DNA of 64,000 nucleotides from Candidatus Bipolaricaulota bacterium (GCA_035528115.1 DATKZF010000001.1:160312-224311), one strand, 5' to 3'; counted from the first letter of the stretch, positions 45,101 through 59,969 are shown. The notes: generated from the sequence alone by a model not told the origin. Numbers and translations are program-made.

Positions 45101-45195
45101 GTTACGAATTACAAGAATCTATTTAGCTTCTAGGTTATTTGTTACAAATTACATTCACTTATAGCTTTATGCTTAAGAAAATTGTAATTCGTAAC
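45101..45195. repeat. MITE-like element, family A: GTTACGAATTACA ... TGTAATTCGTAAC terminal inverted repeats
   Basis: Left 13-mer at 45101-45113 and its exact reverse complement at 45183-45195. The internal segment ttaggttatttgttacaaattaca...cttatagctttatgcttaag is shared with other copies. Confidence 0.7.
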
Positions 45196-45217
45196 ACTTC
45201 CCCTCTCAAATCTTCAT

Positions 45218-45577
45218 TTACATATCAAACGTGGTTTCAACCCATTCGTCTTTTTCATCATCATAACGATAAACGATGAACTCATTCACCTTTTCATCCG
45301 GAGAATATTCATAATCCACCTTGACTTCCCCGCCGATCCTGTTCGAATAATGAGTTTTTTTGCCGATTACCTTTGGTTTGGTGATAAATTCAAACCTCAT
45401 CTTGCCCATGGGGCCGTTAAATTCCACGAATTCGAACTTGCCGCCGGGAGTGTCTTCCAATTCCTCATTGCCCGAAGCCAAAACCTCGAAATTCTTGCTT
45501 ATTTGGAATTTAATGTCTTCCCATCTGTCAGGTATCATATGTTTATTACATTTTAGCAAAAAACGAAAAAAATTCAA
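45218..45577 (-). CDS. Hypothetical protein
   Basis: 119 aa (alternative start MIPDRWED). No motif recognised. Confidence 0.45.
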   Translation of the reverse strand: MNFFRFLLKCNKHMIPDRWEDIKFQISKNFEVLASGNEELEDTPGGKFEFVEFNGPMGKMRFEFITKPKVIGKKTHYSNRIGGEVKVDYEYSPDEKVNEFIVYRYDDEKDEWVETTFDM

Positions 45578-45754
45578 TATGTCCGCCCTTACGACTCATA
45601 TTCGATTTTTGCCGATTTTCTTTAATTTTGATATAATTCAATCAATAAATAATCTTTATATGTTCAAAAAAATAATAGCGTTTTTTCAAAGATTGAAAAG
45701 TATGATGAAAAAATCCAATAAAACAACCTCCGCTGATCAAACCGCGTGAGATAA

Positions 45755-45790
45755 TAAAAAACGACGCCTTCGGGCGCCGTTTTTTATTTT
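45755..45790. terminator. Bidirectional rho-independent terminator
   Basis: AAAAAACGACGCCTTCGGGCGCCGTTTTTTATTTT. Confidence 0.65.
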
Positions 45791-46916
45791 AAATAATTGA
45801 TTCTCTTATTTTCTTCATCAATCCCAAATAAAATTCCAAATTGTTCAACGTGGCCAATCGCGAAGCCATGGGTTCTTCGACGTCGAACAAATGCCGCAAG
45901 TACGCTTTCGAATAATTTCTCAAAACTTCAAACTTGCTGTCCGGATTGATCGGAGAAAAGTCTTCTTTGAACGGCTCGCTTTTTATATTCAAAGCGTAGT
46001 AAAAATTATTATCCGCGGTTTTTGAAGAATTCAACAATTCCGCGAAATCAATATTCTCTTTGAATAAATACAATCGTCCATGCCGCGCTTCGCGAGTCGG
46101 GATCACGCAATCGAACATGTCAATTCCGCGCTTGACCGCTTCAACGATATTTTCCGGCTTGCCCACGCCCATCAAATATCTGGGCTTGTCTTCGGGCAAT
46201 TTCGGACAAACGAAATCCAGCGTTTCATACATTTCCTTGGCGCTTTCGCCCACGGCCAAGCCGCCGATGGCATAACCGTCGAAATCAAGAGAAGTTATTT
46301 GCTCGATGCTTTTTAAACGAAATTCTTTATCCGTGCCTCCTTGGATAATACCAAAAAGCGAAGATTTCTGCACGGCTTTAGCCGGCTGAGCTTTTTGGTA
46401 AAAAACTTTACATCTTTTCGCCCATTCATAAGTCAATTCCAACGCTTCTTCAAGTTTCTTTTTCGTGGCCGGCAATTCGGTGCAAACGTCCAGAACCATC
46501 ATAATATCCGAGCCGAGCGTCATTTGCATTTCAATGGATTTTTCAGGAGTCATCATTATTTTCGAACCGTCGATATGAGAAGAAAATTCCACTCCTTTTT
46601 CGGACAACTTTCTTATTTTCGCCAATGAAAAAACTTGAAAGCCGCCGCTGTCCGTTAAAATAGGTTTGTCCCATTTCATCATTTTATGCAATCCGCCGAA
46701 ATTTTGCATTATTTCTTGGCCGGGCTTCAGCAATAAATGATAAGTGTTCGACAAAATAATTTGGGCCTGCAATTCGGTCAAATCCTCATATGTCAGATGC
46801 TTGAGAGCTCCTTTGGTGGCGATGGGCATAAAAAAAGGACCGGAAATTTTGCCATGTTCGGTTTCCAGCTCAGTCAGCCTGATTTTGCCTTTTTGATTAA
46901 TCTTTTTAAAAATCAT
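45789..46916 (-). CDS. tgt: Queuine tRNA-ribosyltransferase
   Basis: FFMPIATKG...LTDSGGFQVFSL...GLAVGE motifs and a C-terminal Zn site (CVIPTREARHG). Confidence 0.88.
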   Translation of the reverse strand: MIFKKINQKGKIRLTELETEHGKISGPFFMPIATKGALKHLTYEDLTELQAQIILSNTYHLLLKPGQEIMQNFGGLHKMMKWDKPILTDSGGFQVFSLAKIRKLSEKGVEFSSHIDGSKIMMTPEKSIEMQMTLGSDIMMVLDVCTELPATKKKLEEALELTYEWAKRCKVFYQKAQPAKAVQKSSLFGIIQGGTDKEFRLKSIEQITSLDFDGYAIGGLAVGESAKEMYETLDFVCPKLPEDKPRYLMGVGKPENIVEAVKRGIDMFDCVIPTREARHGRLYLFKENIDFAELLNSSKTADNNFYYALNIKSEPFKEDFSPINPDSKFEVLRNYSKAYLRHLFDVEEPMASRLATLNNLEFYLGLMKKIRESII

Positions 46917-46947
46917 AGTTAGATTATTATAACACACTTTAAGAGCA

Positions 46948-46976
46948 TTGACAAACCCTGAAATTTAGGATAAATT
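46948..46976 (+). promoter_or_regulatory. Putative promoter TTGACA-N17-TAAATT for the 47008 operon
   Basis: TTGACA at 46948-46953. The -10 is weak. Confidence 0.3.
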
Positions 46977-47007
46977 ATATGGCCAACCTTGGAAAGGAGG
47001 CTGTACA

Positions 47008-58131: not shown

Positions 58132-58146
58132 ATATCATGAATCATC

Positions 58147-58281
58147 GTTACGAATTACATTAACTAAATAGCTCCTCATTGATATTGTTACGAAGTACAT
58201 TCACTTATAGCTTTATGCCTAAGAAGATTGTAATTAGTAACAAATAACCTGAAAGCCAACGGGATGATTGTAATTCGTAAC
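58147..58281. repeat. MITE-like element family A
   Basis: GTTACGAATTACA at 58147-58159 and TGTAATTCGTAAC at 58269-58281. Internal cttatagctttatgcctaag segment. Confidence 0.7.
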
Positions 58282-58441
58282 ATTTCTCGTACATCTCGTA
58301 ACTGAATTTAAGTGAACCCGGCGGAAAGCCGATATTTTACCATCAACTCCCCGCCGGATTTTCCCCACTTTTCCCCACTAATATTTCCACTACAACCATT
58401 ATAGCCCACATTCACCATCGTATCAACCACTATCCCACACC

Positions 58442-58583
58442 TGTGAATAAACAAAAAAATGCTTTATTATTAAGCATTTTTCAAGATCCTCGCCAACTGT
58501 GGATAAAAACAAATTTCAACTTTTTTATTTTTTATCTTTTATTTCTCATTTTTCAGGACACTTATCCCCTTTTTTGTGGATAA
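58442..58583. promoter_or_regulatory. Cluster of DnaA-box 9-mers flanking an AT-rich tract (oriC-like or DnaA-regulated region)
   Basis: TGTGAATAA at 58442-58450 (1 mismatch), TGTGGATAA at 58498-58506, TTATCCCC at 58561-58569 (variant), and TGTGGATAA at 58575-58583. The 58507-58560 stretch is more than 85% AT. Confidence 0.45.
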
Positions 58584-59387
58584 ATGATTCTTTGGCGAAA
58601 CAATCGCTTTGCCCAAGCGCTTTTCCAGCTTCTTTCTGGCCCCGCCGGCGATGTCTCCCCCTGATTTGGCGTCTGATTTTAATTTTTTCAGACCTTTTGA
58701 ATTTTCCGTCCGGTGTATTTCAGTTGTCGCTCTTTCGCCCAGCATGGTAAAAATCAGTTCAAAATCGTCCATGTGGTCGCGCAAATTTTCCCGTTGCAAT
58801 CCTTTGAGTTCTTTATATTCGTTTGGCGTAATGCCAAAAGTGGCTTTGGATATTTCAGCGGTCAAAATTTCATAATCTTTTTGCTCGCGCGCGCCTCTAT
58901 TTTGCCATTCGTCAGTCAATTCCTCTCGAATAGCAATGCCGCGCATCCGCTTTTCAATCCAATCATCAGGATAGCCTTTAAGCTTATACAATAATCTAGT
59001 GCGCTTGGTCGCCAATTCCGGATTTTCAATCTCTTGCACTCGCTCATAGCCAACTTTTGCTAGCCATCTTTTGAAGGGTTCCGCTTTTGAGGATGGAATT
59101 GATTGAATTAATCTAAATATCCCTTCCGTATTCCAGCAATACATTTTTTGCTTACCGCCAGCAGTTTCTACTTCCAGCATAAGGGGTGGTACAAATTGTA
59201 CCCCTCCCTGATCGGTCAATTTTGCCAATTCTTCATCGCGCTGTTTCATTCTTTTAAAATACTGAGGAGGGTCATTTGAATCGGTCAATGCTTGAATTAC
59301 ATCATTGATCACAAACCACCATTCATTATTATGGATGGTTTTTCTAATCTTTTTGCCTTTAAACAATGCGATTTTTGTGGTTTCCAT
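58539..59387 (-). CDS. Bro-N domain protein (DinD/antirepressor-like)
   Basis: The N-terminal FKGKKIRKTIHNNEWWFVINDVIQAL matches the Bro-N pattern. Length 282 aa. Confidence 0.6.
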   Translation of the reverse strand: METTKIALFKGKKIRKTIHNNEWWFVINDVIQALTDSNDPPQYFKRMKQRDEELAKLTDQGGVQFVPPLMLEVETAGGKQKMYCWNTEGIFRLIQSIPSSKAEPFKRWLAKVGYERVQEIENPELATKRTRLLYKLKGYPDDWIEKRMRGIAIREELTDEWQNRGAREQKDYEILTAEISKATFGITPNEYKELKGLQRENLRDHMDDFELIFTMLGERATTEIHRTENSKGLKKLKSDAKSGGDIAGGARKKLEKRLGKAIVSPKNHLSTKKGISVLKNEK

Positions 59388-59396
59388 ATTTATTCC

Positions 59397-59810
59397 CTAT
59401 TTCTTGGCCGCAGTAATATTCGGCTCAGCGTTATAAACCGGCTTGGCCATTTTCCCGGCTTTGACCTTTTCGCTCAATTTCAAAACATCAGCCAATTTGC
59501 TTTTTTCGGTTTTGTATTTTTTTTCAAGCTCAATTCCTTTCACCGGCAAATTCCACGCGTAGCCCAAAGCATTGGCAATGGAAATTCCGATTCGAACCGC
59601 AGAAAAGTCTCCCGGGCCTGACACAACGATCATTTCTTTTAAATTTCTTTTTCCGGCTTTATGCTTTTTCAAAAGCTTATCAATCGTTTTCAAAACCAGC
59701 TCCGACTGCCTGAACGGCTTTTCAACCAATACAAAATCAATTAGCCGATTGGAGTCGGCTAAGGCAATGGAGAATTTTTGATTAGATTCGGTGCTGATTA
59801 TTATTTTCAT
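59397..59810 (-). CDS. tsaB: tRNA t6A complex subunit TsaB (YeaZ), short form
   Basis: VVSGPGDFSAVRIGISIANALGYAWNLPVKGI resembles the GPGSFTGLRIG TsaB motif. Confidence 0.6.
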   Translation of the reverse strand: MKIIISTESNQKFSIALADSNRLIDFVLVEKPFRQSELVLKTIDKLLKKHKAGKRNLKEMIVVSGPGDFSAVRIGISIANALGYAWNLPVKGIELEKKYKTEKSKLADVLKLSEKVKAGKMAKPVYNAEPNITAAKK

Positions 59811-59832
59811 AAATACTAATCGGAACGATAAT

Positions 59833-59969
59833 TTGTTACTAAATTACAAAACTCCATTTGGCTTTTAGGTTATTTGTTACAAATTACATTCATCTATAGC
59901 TATATGCTTTAGACTATTGTAATTCGTAACATCCGCTTGGAAGCTAAGTGGAATATTGTAATTCGTAAC
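59833..59969. repeat. MITE-like element family A (degenerate left end, duplicated right end)
   Basis: ttaggttatttgttacaaattacattca internal segment. TGTAATTCGTAAC at 59917-59929 and at 59957-59969. Confidence 0.65.

What the first reader, a model, noticed from the sequence alone, without database searches (positions are those of the whole stretch)
45101..59969. Dispersed MITE-like element family bounded by a 13-mer inverted repeat
The 13-mer GTTACGAATTACA and its exact reverse complement TGTAATTCGTAAC occur at least 11 times in 64 kb, against an expected roughly 0.002 for a random 13-mer. Almost all copies lie in intergenic spacers between 45 and 60 kb. They bound elements of about 95-175 bp (45101-45195, 48170-48342, 56014-56116, 58147-58281, 59833-59969), and a solo end sits at 53178-53190. 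The elements share internal modules (ttaggttatttgttacaaattaca; cttatagctttatgcttaagaa) that can occur inverted between copies. Related degenerate copies lie upstream of the atp operon (5401-5640) and of lexA (32010-32087). The family encodes no protein, so it looks like a non-autonomous mobile element, a family of structured sRNAs, or a shared operator. Element density coincides with the accessory-looking gene content, which suggests the elements mark a recombination or integration hotspot.
Basis: seen in the sequence. Interest (0 to 1): 0.7.

Follow-up and report, generated by a model that had tools for sequence, protein, structure and literature searches.

The report
Modular palindromic intergenic repeat family
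A small candidate-phyla-radiation (Patescibacteria) genome carries a species-specific family of non-coding, hairpin-forming repeats built from a 13-base box and two conserved linkers. The repeats sit in spacers between conserved housekeeping genes, so this looks like an ordinary selfish repeat of the MITE/BOX/BIME kind in an unusual host, not a regulatory system or an integration hotspot.

Summary
GTTACGAATTACA (box B) and its complement (b) occur 11 times exactly (0.01 expected) and 21 times with up to 2 mismatches, always between genes.

Five loci share one plan, (B-X)n-B-Y-b-(X'-b)m. Boxes recur every ~40 nt, X is a 27-nt linker and Y a 29-nt centre. There is also one solo box and two variant arrays (atpI/atpB spacer, lexA upstream).

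- **Conservation.** Outer boxes are near-invariant, Y is 82% and X 55% identical. This fits common descent plus constraint on the box.
- **Host.** A Patescibacteria MAG (Tgt = HUT21970.1).
- **Relatives.** About 117 kb of syntenic DNA from relatives (Tgt 78% identical) has no box and no profile hit. One filled spacer (147 nt) is 4-10 nt long in relatives.
- **mraZ copy.** It lies in a variable 5' leader downstream of a conserved promoter, so it is probably transcribed.
- **Not found.** Target-site duplication, transposase, Rfam match, covariation, or consistent strand bias.
- **Gene content.** Neighbouring genes are conserved housekeeping genes, not accessory ones.

Verdict: a new member of the known class of MITE/BOX/BIME-like intergenic repeats. 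How it spreads is unproven. Moderate-to-low interest.

The parts
45101..45195 (.). Locus 1: B (45101-45113), X (45114-45140), inner box GTTACAAATTACA (45141-45153), Y (45154-45182), b (45183-45195). It lies between a 119-aa gene (45218-45577, - strand) and a DUF6612 gene (44174-45070, - strand).
   Evidence: It folds better than shuffles (-27.8 kcal/mol, z -6.0). The orthologous spacer is 10 nt in L115 and 4 nt in L116.
48170..48342 (.). Locus 2, the longest copy. Read on the - strand it is B-X-B-X-(degenerate box 48253-48265)-Y-(box 48210-48222)-X-B. It lies after the terminator of the 47734-48138 (+) gene and before the promoter of a MORN-repeat gene (48504-49268, +).
   Evidence: -45.6 kcal/mol. 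The MORN gene has no counterpart in the relatives' syntenic loci.
53178..53190 (-). Solo box with no X or Y module. It overlaps the stop codon of the DUF333 gene (53190-53732, -) by 1 nt and precedes a terminator-like hairpin.
   Evidence: Relatives have a Na+/H+ exchanger gene between the DUF333 and radical-SAM genes at this point.
56024..56118 (.). Locus 4: B-X-(inner box 56064-56076)-inverted Y-(degenerate box 56106-56118). A partial box (ATTACGAATG) sits at 56011-56023. It lies between the ftsL-like gene with its terminator (56179-56198) and a PsbP-like gene (55287-55964, -).
   Evidence: It is 95-97% identical, inverted, to 58184-58286. On its own it folds no better than shuffles.
58147..58281 (.). 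Locus 5: B-X*-B'-Y-b'-X-b. It lies in the 5' leader of mraZ (57700-58131, -), 15 nt upstream of the ATG and downstream of the conserved mraZ promoter block (58300-58430).
   Evidence: -35.5 and -39.9 kcal/mol on the two strands. The alignment with L122 and L124 shows a conserved promoter followed by a lineage-specific leader.
59834..59969 (.). Locus 6: (box with 1-nt insertion)-X-B'-Y-b-X'-b. It lies between a YkuD-domain gene (59991-61421, -) and tsaB (59397-59810, -). It forms an almost continuous hairpin.
   Evidence: + strand -54.6 kcal/mol, z -10.4; - strand -47.9 kcal/mol.
5409..5630 (+). Variant subfamily: four tandem units of ACGTTACGAAT(TATTAC) plus an X-like linker (..TTAGCTAGCCTTGG..), all in one orientation. 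They lie between the atpI-like gene (5667-5987, -) and atpB (4647-5399, -).
   Evidence: (D15, 91% identity between two units).
31993..32116 (.). Variant inverted pair (AATGGTTACGAATYTAC) plus a third 9-mer core, upstream of lexA (31339-31944, -).
   Evidence: (I12: 34-nt arms, 76% complementary).

Best explanation
This is a lineage-specific, non-coding, modular palindromic repeat family that has multiplied into AT-rich intergenic spacers of one Patescibacteria species.

**Building blocks.**
- The ~40-nt brick is the 13-mer box B followed by the 27-nt linker X. B is itself two heptads, TTACGAA-TTACAnn.
- One to three bricks in direct orientation face zero to two bricks in inverted orientation across the 29-nt centre Y.
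- A full copy is therefore a 95-175-nt imperfect palindrome.

**Shown.**
- The copies descend from a common ancestor, because X and Y are conserved as well as the box.
- The box is under stronger constraint than the linkers.
- The family is absent from genus-level relatives at syntenic sites.
- At least one copy lies where relatives have almost no spacer.
- One copy lies in the mraZ leader.

**Inferred.**
- The box is the recognition site of a protein encoded elsewhere (transposase-, recombinase- or RAYT-like) that copies the element in trans, without making target duplications.
- Brick number then changes by slippage or unequal recombination.
- Copies homogenise by gene conversion, as in loci 4 and 5 (95-97% identical).
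- Elements inside operons and leaders are co-transcribed and form long RNA hairpins. These could incidentally affect mRNA processing, stability or termination, as REP, ERIC, Correia and BOX elements do.
For: **Frequency and location.** Searches give the over-representation and the intergenic restriction.

**Shared modules and architecture.** Searches show shared X and Y modules in both orientations with variable brick numbers.

**Differential conservation.** Mean pairwise identity is 0.94 for the outer box, 0.86 for the inner box, 0.82 for Y and 0.55 for X. Eight of 10 outermost boxes are exact against 3 of 10 inner boxes.

**Palindromic folding.** Four of the five loci fold: z -4.3 to -10.4 for loci 1, 5 and 6, and about -45 kcal/mol for locus 2, which had no shuffle control.

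**Absence from relatives.** About 117 kb of syntenic DNA from relatives has no box and no profile-HMM hit and no comparable repeat family.

**Filled versus empty spacer.** 147 nt here against 4-10 nt in relatives.

**mraZ leader.** Conserved promoter followed by a replaced leader.

**Recent copying or conversion.** Loci 4 and 5 are 95-97% identical.

**Clustering.** Five of 10 long spacers in 45-60 kb carry a composite copy, against 0 of 13 elsewhere (p = 0.007).

**Repeat nature confirmed independently.** Short-read contigs break inside the copies.
Against: - No target-site duplication or conserved target is visible at any of the five composite loci (direct reading).
- No transposase, recombinase or RAYT gene was found among the window ORFs that were scanned.
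- Whole-genome copy number is unknown.
- No within-species insertion polymorphism could be examined. Every other contig of this species was 100% identical.
- Short box-like motifs (ATTCGTAAT, ATTCGTAACC, TTGTAATTATTCGTAAT) do occur upstream of a few genes in relatives. The box may therefore descend from an older host motif rather than from an IS end.
- Other lineages fill the same mraZ leader with their own short-repeat arrays. This could point to a local repeat-generating process rather than transposition.
Confidence: 0.6

Rival explanations
1. There is no transposition. The arrays grow in place from pre-existing short TTACGAA-type tandem repeats by slippage and template switching, which produces palindromes. 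They spread between nearby spacers by gene conversion or ectopic recombination. On this view the family is a product of a clade-wide tendency to build inverted arrays of 7-10-nt repeats in spacers.
For: - Short 7-10-nt tandem repeats are common in the spacers of the window and of relatives.
- Relatives show the same direct-array-then-inverted-array layout with other motifs: L124 mraZ leader ACGCAAAA/TTTTGCG and L122 3442-3539 GAAAATA/CTATTTT.
- The box is a heptad dimer, and 10-nt-period versions occur in the atp spacer and in relatives.
- No target-site duplication was found.
- Copies are tightly clustered.
Against: The 27-nt X and 29-nt Y linkers are not simple repeats, yet they recur at five separate loci up to 15 kb apart, in both orientations. 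This requires copying of ~95-nt blocks between unrelated spacers. One copy sits where relatives have only a 4-10-nt spacer, leaving no obvious seed.
Confidence: 0.2
2. The boxes are operator sites of a host DNA-binding protein, for example a winged-helix response regulator that recognises direct hexamer repeats (TTACGA/TTACAA). The arrays would then be cis-regulatory regions of a regulon.
For: - The box is far more conserved than the linkers.
- Boxes recur every ~40 nt, about four helical turns.
- The gene-proximal box lies 10-30 nt upstream of several start codons: atpB, mraZ and the DUF6612 gene.
- Related motifs lie just upstream of start codons in relatives: L115 tgt, L122 11167 and 12128, L124 10036.
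Against: - Boxes are not conserved at orthologous promoters. For example, tgt has them in L115 but not in the window or L111, and mraZ has them only in the window.
- The downstream genes (atpB, mraZ, tsaB, a PsbP-like gene, a DUF6612 gene) form no coherent regulon.
- Conserved 27-29-nt linkers, and copies placed after stop codons or terminators (the solo box, locus 2), are not expected of operators.
- In the 13-mer the hexamers are 7 nt apart, which puts them on different faces of the helix.
Confidence: 0.1
3. The elements are structured RNAs: independent sRNA genes, or selected cis-acting mRNA elements such as leader hairpins, RNase III sites or terminators.
For: - Long stable hairpins form on either strand.
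- Locus 5 lies within the probable mraZ 5' UTR, and locus 1 and the atp array lie within operons.
- Locus 6 uses several G-U pairs on the + strand.
Against: - No Rfam family matches, even at E <= 1.
- No pair with a compensatory change was found in the B-Y-b hairpin.
- There is no consistent strand preference in stability (+ is better at loci 1 and 6, - at locus 5) or in orientation relative to the flanking genes.
- Locus 4 does not fold better than shuffles.
- Promoter-like sites using the box's TACAAT were found at only 2 of 5 loci, and no regular U-tract follows the hairpins (direct reading).
Confidence: 0.08
4. The elements are recombination sites of an integron-like or other site-specific recombination system, and they delimit gene cassettes.
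For: Imperfect palindromes of ~100-170 nt separate co-oriented genes at 1.5-5 kb intervals.
Against: - The genes between the elements are conserved housekeeping genes in the same order as in relatives that lack the elements.
- No integrase or recombinase is encoded in the window.
- GTTACGA does not fit the attC core GTTRRRY (direct reading; the core definition is from general knowledge).
Confidence: 0.02

Closest known systems
BOX elements of Streptococcus pneumoniae (boxA-(boxB)n-boxC)
   Same: Non-coding and intergenic. Modular, with a variable number of an internal ~40-45-nt module. The ends are complementary, so the whole element folds into a long hairpin. Copies tend to bunch together in the chromosome (clustering as described in PMC10969869; module structure from my own knowledge).
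   Different: No sequence relationship. Here the repeated module carries the same 13-mer as the termini, and it occurs on both arms in opposite orientation. The host is a Patescibacteria bacterium.
BIMEs / REP and REPIN elements of Enterobacteria and Pseudomonas
   Same: A mosaic of a short conserved motif in alternating orientation, separated by a small set of conserved linkers. No target-site duplication. Located between genes and inside operons. Co-transcribed hairpins.
   Different: REP units are themselves 20-40-nt palindromes, usually with a GTAG or CGTC tag (PMC3733652), and they go with a RAYT gene. The 13-mer here is not palindromic and has no such tag, and no RAYT gene was seen.
ERIC and Correia (CREE) MITEs
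   Same: Imperfect palindromes of 100-170 nt in intergenic or intra-operon positions. They are transcribed within mRNAs, where RNase III or RNase E processing has been shown (PMC10969869).
   Different: Those families have defined terminal inverted repeats and, for Correia, a TA duplication (my own knowledge). Here no duplication was found, and the arms are built from repeated box-linker bricks.
BrickBuilt MITE of Porphyromonas gingivalis
   Same: A small non-coding intergenic element containing an internal tandem array whose unit number varies between copies (PMC4596501 abstract, seen).
   Different: BrickBuilt has a 23-nt minisatellite without spacers, flanked by distinct leader and tail ends. 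Here the units are 40 nt (box plus linker) and are arranged as two inverted arrays around a centre.

Membership tests
MITE (miniature inverted-repeat transposable element) | Small (<~500 bp), no coding capacity | tested here: met
   Copies are 95-173 nt. The only ATG-initiated frame in Y is not conserved between copies (direct reading).
MITE (miniature inverted-repeat transposable element) | Terminal inverted repeats | tested here: met
   Exact 13-nt B/b termini at loci 1, 2 and 5. One degenerate terminus each at loci 4 and 6.
MITE (miniature inverted-repeat transposable element) | Target-site duplication flanking each copy | tested here: not met
   Flanks of all five composite copies and the solo box were compared by eye. 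No 2-10-nt direct repeat recurs, and the closest case is AATAC/AATAT at locus 2.
MITE (miniature inverted-repeat transposable element) | Multiple dispersed copies in the genome | tested here: inconclusive
   There are five composite copies, one solo box and two variant arrays in 64 kb, clustered at 45-60 kb. None occurs in the 7.4 kb beyond the right end. The rest of the genome could not be reached: the collection scans did not return the source genome.
MITE (miniature inverted-repeat transposable element) | A cognate autonomous IS or transposase with the same termini | tested here: inconclusive
   None was found among the window ORFs scanned against Pfam.
MITE (miniature inverted-repeat transposable element) | Presence/absence polymorphism at orthologous sites | tested here: met
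   Met only at genus level. The spacer with locus 1 is 147 nt, against 10 nt in L115 and 4 nt in L116. No box or profile hit occurs in ~117 kb of syntenic DNA. Strain level was not testable because all same-species contigs are identical.
REP / REPIN | Unit is a 20-40-nt imperfect palindrome with a conserved GTAG or CGTC end tag | tested here: not met
   The 13-mer is not self-complementary and has no GTAG or CGTC tag (direct reading; definition from the PMC3733652 abstract).
REP / REPIN | Associated RAYT (Y1 transposase) gene | tested here: inconclusive
   No Y1_Tnp hit in the window (Pfam). The genome-wide answer is unknown.
Integron attC array | attC core sites (RYYYAAC / GTTRRRY), an intI gene, and cassettes of variable accessory genes | tested here: not met
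   GTTACGA violates GTTRRRY. No integrase is encoded in the window. The genes between the elements are syntenic housekeeping genes.
Known structured RNA family (Rfam) | Match to a curated covariance model | tested here: not met
   Only tRNA-Glu passes a gathering threshold. No match at E <= 1 overlaps a core element; one sub-threshold snoRNA chance hit (55873-56014) ends just short of locus 4 at the partial box.
Transcription-factor operator array | Sites conserved at orthologous promoters, and a coherent regulon | tested here: not met
   Orthologous promoters in relatives lack the box. The downstream genes are functionally unrelated. Protein binding itself cannot be tested with these tools.

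The most novel reading that the evidence does not exclude
The TTACGAA-heptad box is the target of a still unidentified nucleic-acid-binding protein of this Patescibacteria clade. The inverted box arrays would then be either (a) the ends of a new class of non-autonomous element that moves without target duplication, or (b) domesticated leader and spacer hairpins that control mRNA fate in a bacterium that largely lacks Shine-Dalgarno sequences and long leaders. Supporting hints are that each lineage fills the same mraZ leader with its own inverted short-repeat array, and that box-like motifs sit next to start codons in relatives.
Probability: 0.12. Interest if true: 0.6.

Novelty: new member of a known kind. 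Interest (0 to 1): 0.33.

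Why it matters
Dispersed repeats are rarely described in the tiny genomes of candidate-phyla-radiation bacteria. My literature searches found no description of such a family.

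- **Practical consequence.** The family breaks short-read assemblies. It could serve as a strain marker or as a breakpoint for rearrangements. The 103-nt inverted copies flanking mraZ-rsmH-ftsL are one such pair.
- **Biological consequence.** It places long hairpins in the mraZ leader and inside the atp operon, and these might affect expression.
- **If the box proves to be a protein target.** It would lead to an unknown mobilising or regulatory protein in an uncultivated lineage.

As it stands, this is an ordinary kind of genomic feature in an unusual host.

Tried and rejected
- **GTDB representative genomes.** A scan for B-N26-28-GTTAC gave only 15 single hits in unrelated taxa, at chance level. 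The source genome is not among the representatives.
- **JGI metagenomes.** My pattern was too loose. None of those hits shares the X or Y modules.
- **Viral contigs.** Three single hits at chance level, not examined further.
- **Extending the window.** Protein look-ups gained 7.4 kb on the right, with no element, and about 230 nt on the left. Two look-ups failed because of start-codon choice.
- **LexA operator idea.** Rejected. A GAAC-N7-GAAC direct repeat at 32119-32133 is the more plausible LexA box, and the 13-mer precedes non-SOS genes.
- **Promoter idea.** The box's TACAAT could act as a -10 element, or TTGTAA as a -35 element. Acceptable partner hexamers were found at only 2 of 5 loci.
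- **Other ideas considered from sequence alone and dropped.**
  - Altered Shine-Dalgarno pairing: a few genes keep a canonical AAGGAGG.
  - parS, Ter or dif-like sites: the box is not palindromic, and there is no GC-skew switch.
  - CRISPR: the 'spacers' are conserved.
  - Invertible promoter: a 29-nt segment is too short, and element orientation explains the orientation of Y.
- **RNA covariation.** No compensatory pairs.
- **Strand asymmetry of G-U pairs.** Inconsistent across loci.

Full report

Yes. Dinucleotide-preserving shuffles give a mean of 0.01. With up to two mismatches there are 21 matches against 1.5 expected. The 9-mer core GTTACGAAT occurs 19 times against 0.6 expected, and 18 of those fall in the 10% of the window that is intergenic (p = 2e-17).

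Repeat finding and blastn of all spacers against each other confirm that the copies share much more than the box. Five copies align over 90 nt at 68-88% identity. 56019-56121 and 58184-58286 are 95-97% identical in inverted orientation.

Independent Logan contigs of the same strain are 100% identical through loci 1 and 2 and end inside loci 4, 5 and 6. So the sequence is genuine, and it is repetitive enough to break short-read assemblies.

**Anatomy**

Reading the copies gives a single plan: (B-X)n-B-Y-b-(X'-b)m.

- X is a 27-nt linker (consensus ..TCCATTTGGCTTYYAGG..) with two tail variants.
- Y is a 29-nt asymmetric centre (TTCACTTATAGCTTTATGCTTAAGAAAAT).
- Boxes recur every ~40 nt.

With Y in its + orientation, the brick counts are:

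| Locus | n (direct bricks) | m (inverted bricks) |
|---|---|---|
| 1 | 1 | 0 |
| 2 | 2 | 1 |
| 4 | 0 | 1 |
| 5 | 1 | 1 |
| 6 | 1 | 1 |

53178-53190 is a solo box. The box itself is a dimer of the heptad TTACGAA/TTACAnn.

Two variant subfamilies exist:

- Four tandem units, ACGTTACGAATTATTAC plus an X-like linker, lie between an atpI-like gene and atpB.
- An inverted pair, AATGGTTACGAATYTAC, lies upstream of lexA.

Conservation is uneven:

| Module | Mean pairwise identity |
|---|---|
| Outer box | 0.94 |
| Inner box | 0.86 |
| Y | 0.82 |
| X | 0.55 |

Eight of 10 outermost boxes are exact, against 3 of 10 inner ones. The linkers are similar enough to prove common descent. The box is conserved well beyond the linkers, which points to sequence-specific recognition or to homogenisation.

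**Folding**

Full copies are long imperfect palindromes.

| Locus | + strand (kcal/mol) | - strand (kcal/mol) |
|---|---|---|
| 6 | -54.6 (z -10.4) | -47.9 |
| 5 | -35.5 | -39.9 |
| 1 | -27.8 | -24.9 |
| 2 | about -45 | about -45 |

The truncated locus 4 folds no better than shuffles. Neither strand is consistently favoured. The B-Y-b alignment shows no pair with a compensatory change. No Rfam family matches. The palindromy is therefore a property of the DNA, and nothing indicates a selected RNA structure.

**Host and context**

The nearest Tgt and RsmH homologues are all Patescibacteria (Falkowbacteria and neighbours). The identical Tgt is NCBI HUT21970.1, from a MAG labelled 'Candidatus Bipolaricaulota'.

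Nearly all genes lie on the - strand, and GC skew is uniformly negative. The 45-60 kb genes are, in order:

- Band_7 and DUF6612 genes
- tgt, ogg and a YgjP-like gene
- hemerythrin, radical-SAM and DUF333 genes
- a paralogous secreted-protein family
- an ftsL-like gene, rsmH and mraZ
- a Bro-N gene, tsaB and a YkuD-domain gene

. Relatives with 78% identical Tgt show the same order across these genes, including the Bro-N gene (L111, L115/L122 = GCA_049319825.1, L116, L124, L125). The region is therefore not accessory. No transposase or recombinase was found among the window ORFs scanned.

**Comparison with relatives**

- About 117 kb of syntenic DNA from the relatives has no 13-mer within 2 mismatches of the box, apart from three isolated 2-mismatch matches of chance type (GCTACCAATTACA in L115 and L116, GTTACGAATAACC in L124).
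- There is no nhmmer hit to profiles of the B-X-B and B-Y-b units.
- There is no comparable repeat family.
- The spacer holding locus 1 is 147 nt here but only 10 nt in L115 and 4 nt in L116, between the orthologous genes. This is effectively a filled site against an empty one.
- At mraZ, the promoter block is conserved in three lineages: TTGATA-N17-TATAAT, then GTGGGGAAAAGTGGGGAAAA, then a GC hairpin, then TTCACTTAATTT. The 100-170 nt between that block and the ATG differ completely.
  - The window has locus 5.
  - L122 has a GC hairpin plus (CCATGCT)x5.
  - L124 has ACGCAAAA repeats facing their inverted copies, which also fold into a long hairpin.

Locus 5 is therefore very probably transcribed as part of the mraZ leader.

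Only locus 2 and the solo box lie at synteny breaks. Locus 2 is next to a lineage-specific MORN gene. The solo box is where relatives have a Na+/H+ exchanger gene. The most gene-variable stretch, between ogg and the radical-SAM gene, has no element.

**Complications**

- Short box-like motifs occur in relatives just upstream of some start codons: ATTCGTAAT twice before tgt in L115, TTGTAATTATTCGTAAT before two paralogous genes in L122, and ATTCGTAACC in L124. There the hexamers are spaced 10 nt apart, as in the atp-spacer variant, not 7 nt as in the 13-mer.
- Spacers in this clade are generally rich in 7-10-nt tandem repeats.

The box may therefore derive from an older host motif. A local process of slippage and template switching remains a serious rival to transposition. 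The operator reading is weakened for three reasons. The sites are not conserved at orthologous promoters. The downstream genes form no coherent set. Operators do not need conserved 27-29-nt linkers or copies placed after stop codons.

**Mechanism**

I commit to a non-autonomous selfish repeat whose 13-mer is recognised in trans. It is copied into AT-rich spacers without target duplication. Afterwards it is remodelled by gain and loss of bricks and by gene conversion.

- The generic claim (a lineage-specific, proliferated, non-coding repeat family) I hold at about 0.9.
- The specific mode of spread I hold at about 0.4.
- I give 0.6 overall.

No target-site duplication is visible at any locus. 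Strict MITE membership therefore fails on one defining feature, and the cognate transposase is untested genome-wide. Functional consequences such as hairpins in the mraZ leader and the atp operon, possible RNase III sites, or recombination between the inverted loci 4 and 5 are inferred by analogy with REP, ERIC, Correia and BOX elements (PMC10969869).

**Novelty and score**

The sequence family is new: it was absent from the GTDB representative genomes as scanned, from the viral contigs, and from the metagenome hits that were inspected. My literature searches found no description of such repeats in CPR bacteria. The kind of feature is well known, however. I rate it a new member of a known kind, with interest 0.33.

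Noticed in passing
window 506-655, 38012-38150 and 56119-56160: A second intergenic repeat family, 86-88% identical over 70-80 nt. It is built from short tandem motifs (GGAAACY, CATTGTTAC, CATGATA/CGTGATA) around a GC-rich hairpin. Its CATGNTNCATGATA module abuts locus 4, and it also precedes the mraZ start codon in the relative L122 (7418-7473). This module is therefore older than the 13-mer family.
   Followed up: partly
window 58300-58510 (- strand); L122 7185-7300; L124 1330-1480: The mraZ promoter region is conserved across three lineages. It has a sigma-70-like TTGATA-N17-TATAAT, a 10-nt direct repeat GTGGGGAAAAGTGGGGAAAA (probably the MraZ operator) and a GC hairpin. Upstream DnaA-box-like TTATCCACA motifs lie at 58498-58506 in the window and are present in both relatives. 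The leader downstream of this block is lineage-specific.
   Followed up: partly
whole window (gene starts): Only 8 of 68 ORF starts have even a permissive Shine-Dalgarno-like tetramer within 20 nt. Many genes have a TATAAT-like hexamer 7-10 nt before the ATG (for example 9131-9835, 9899-10747, 22231-23454, 35428-37671), which suggests widespread leaderless or SD-independent initiation. The few genes with a canonical AAGGAGG (47008, 48504) lie on the opposite strand from most genes.
   Followed up: partly
window 32119-32133: A GAAC-N7-GAAC direct repeat (GTTC-N7-GTTC on the lexA strand) lies about 175 nt upstream of lexA (31339-31944). This is a plausible direct-repeat LexA box. lexA is followed by an 82-aa ORF and a Y-family polymerase gene (29587-30837). 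The variant box hairpin lies between this putative operator and lexA.
   Followed up: no
window 41628-43277 (+), repeats at 42084-43257: This ORF contains about 12 tandem copies of an 87-nt (29-aa) repeat. Its counterpart in relatives is a much larger repetitive protein (1083-1719 aa).
   Followed up: no
window 16834-18423 and 18448-19992: Two adjacent paralogous genes for cofactor-independent phosphoglycerate mutase (iPGM), about 72-76% identical at the DNA level in stretches. They sit next to the enolase and phosphoglycerate kinase genes.
   Followed up: no
window 23493-28284: A cluster resembling a soluble [NiFe]-hydrogenase: large subunit, a 20-kDa Oxidored_q6 small subunit, an FAD/NAD-binding subunit, a 4Fe-4S subunit and a HypA-like gene. 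Notable in a small Patescibacteria genome.
   Followed up: no
source record (Tgt = HUT21970.1): The MAG is labelled 'Candidatus Bipolaricaulota bacterium' in NCBI, but every close Tgt and RsmH homologue is from Patescibacteria (Falkowbacteria, Kuenenbacteria and relatives). The taxonomic label is probably wrong.
   Followed up: partly
L122 13722-14068 and 3442-3539 (GCA_049319825.1, JBMORT010000008.1): The relative carries about 34 tandem copies of the decamer AATAACGCAA between its DUF333 and Na+/H+ exchanger genes. It also has a GAAAATA array facing its inverted copy after the YkuD-domain gene. Short-repeat arrays in spacers therefore appear to be a clade-wide habit.
   Followed up: partly
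window 56019-56121 and 58184-58286: These 103-nt copies are 95% complementary and flank the 2.06-kb mraZ-rsmH-ftsL segment as inverted repeats. The Logan assembly yields that segment as a separate 2,160-nt contig (L001). Recombination between the copies could invert the operon. The orientation here matches that in relatives.
   Followed up: partly
window 48139-49388: The MORN-repeat gene (48504-49268, +) has its own strong promoter-like site (48423-48451), a canonical SD and a strong terminator (49290-49318). It has no counterpart between ogg and the neighbouring small genes in relatives, so it looks like a lineage-specific gene insertion next to locus 2.
   Followed up: partly
window 9899-10747 (+): An N6/N4 DNA methyltransferase gene on the minority strand. 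No recognisable restriction-enzyme gene lies next to it (10751-11098 has no Pfam hit).
   Followed up: no
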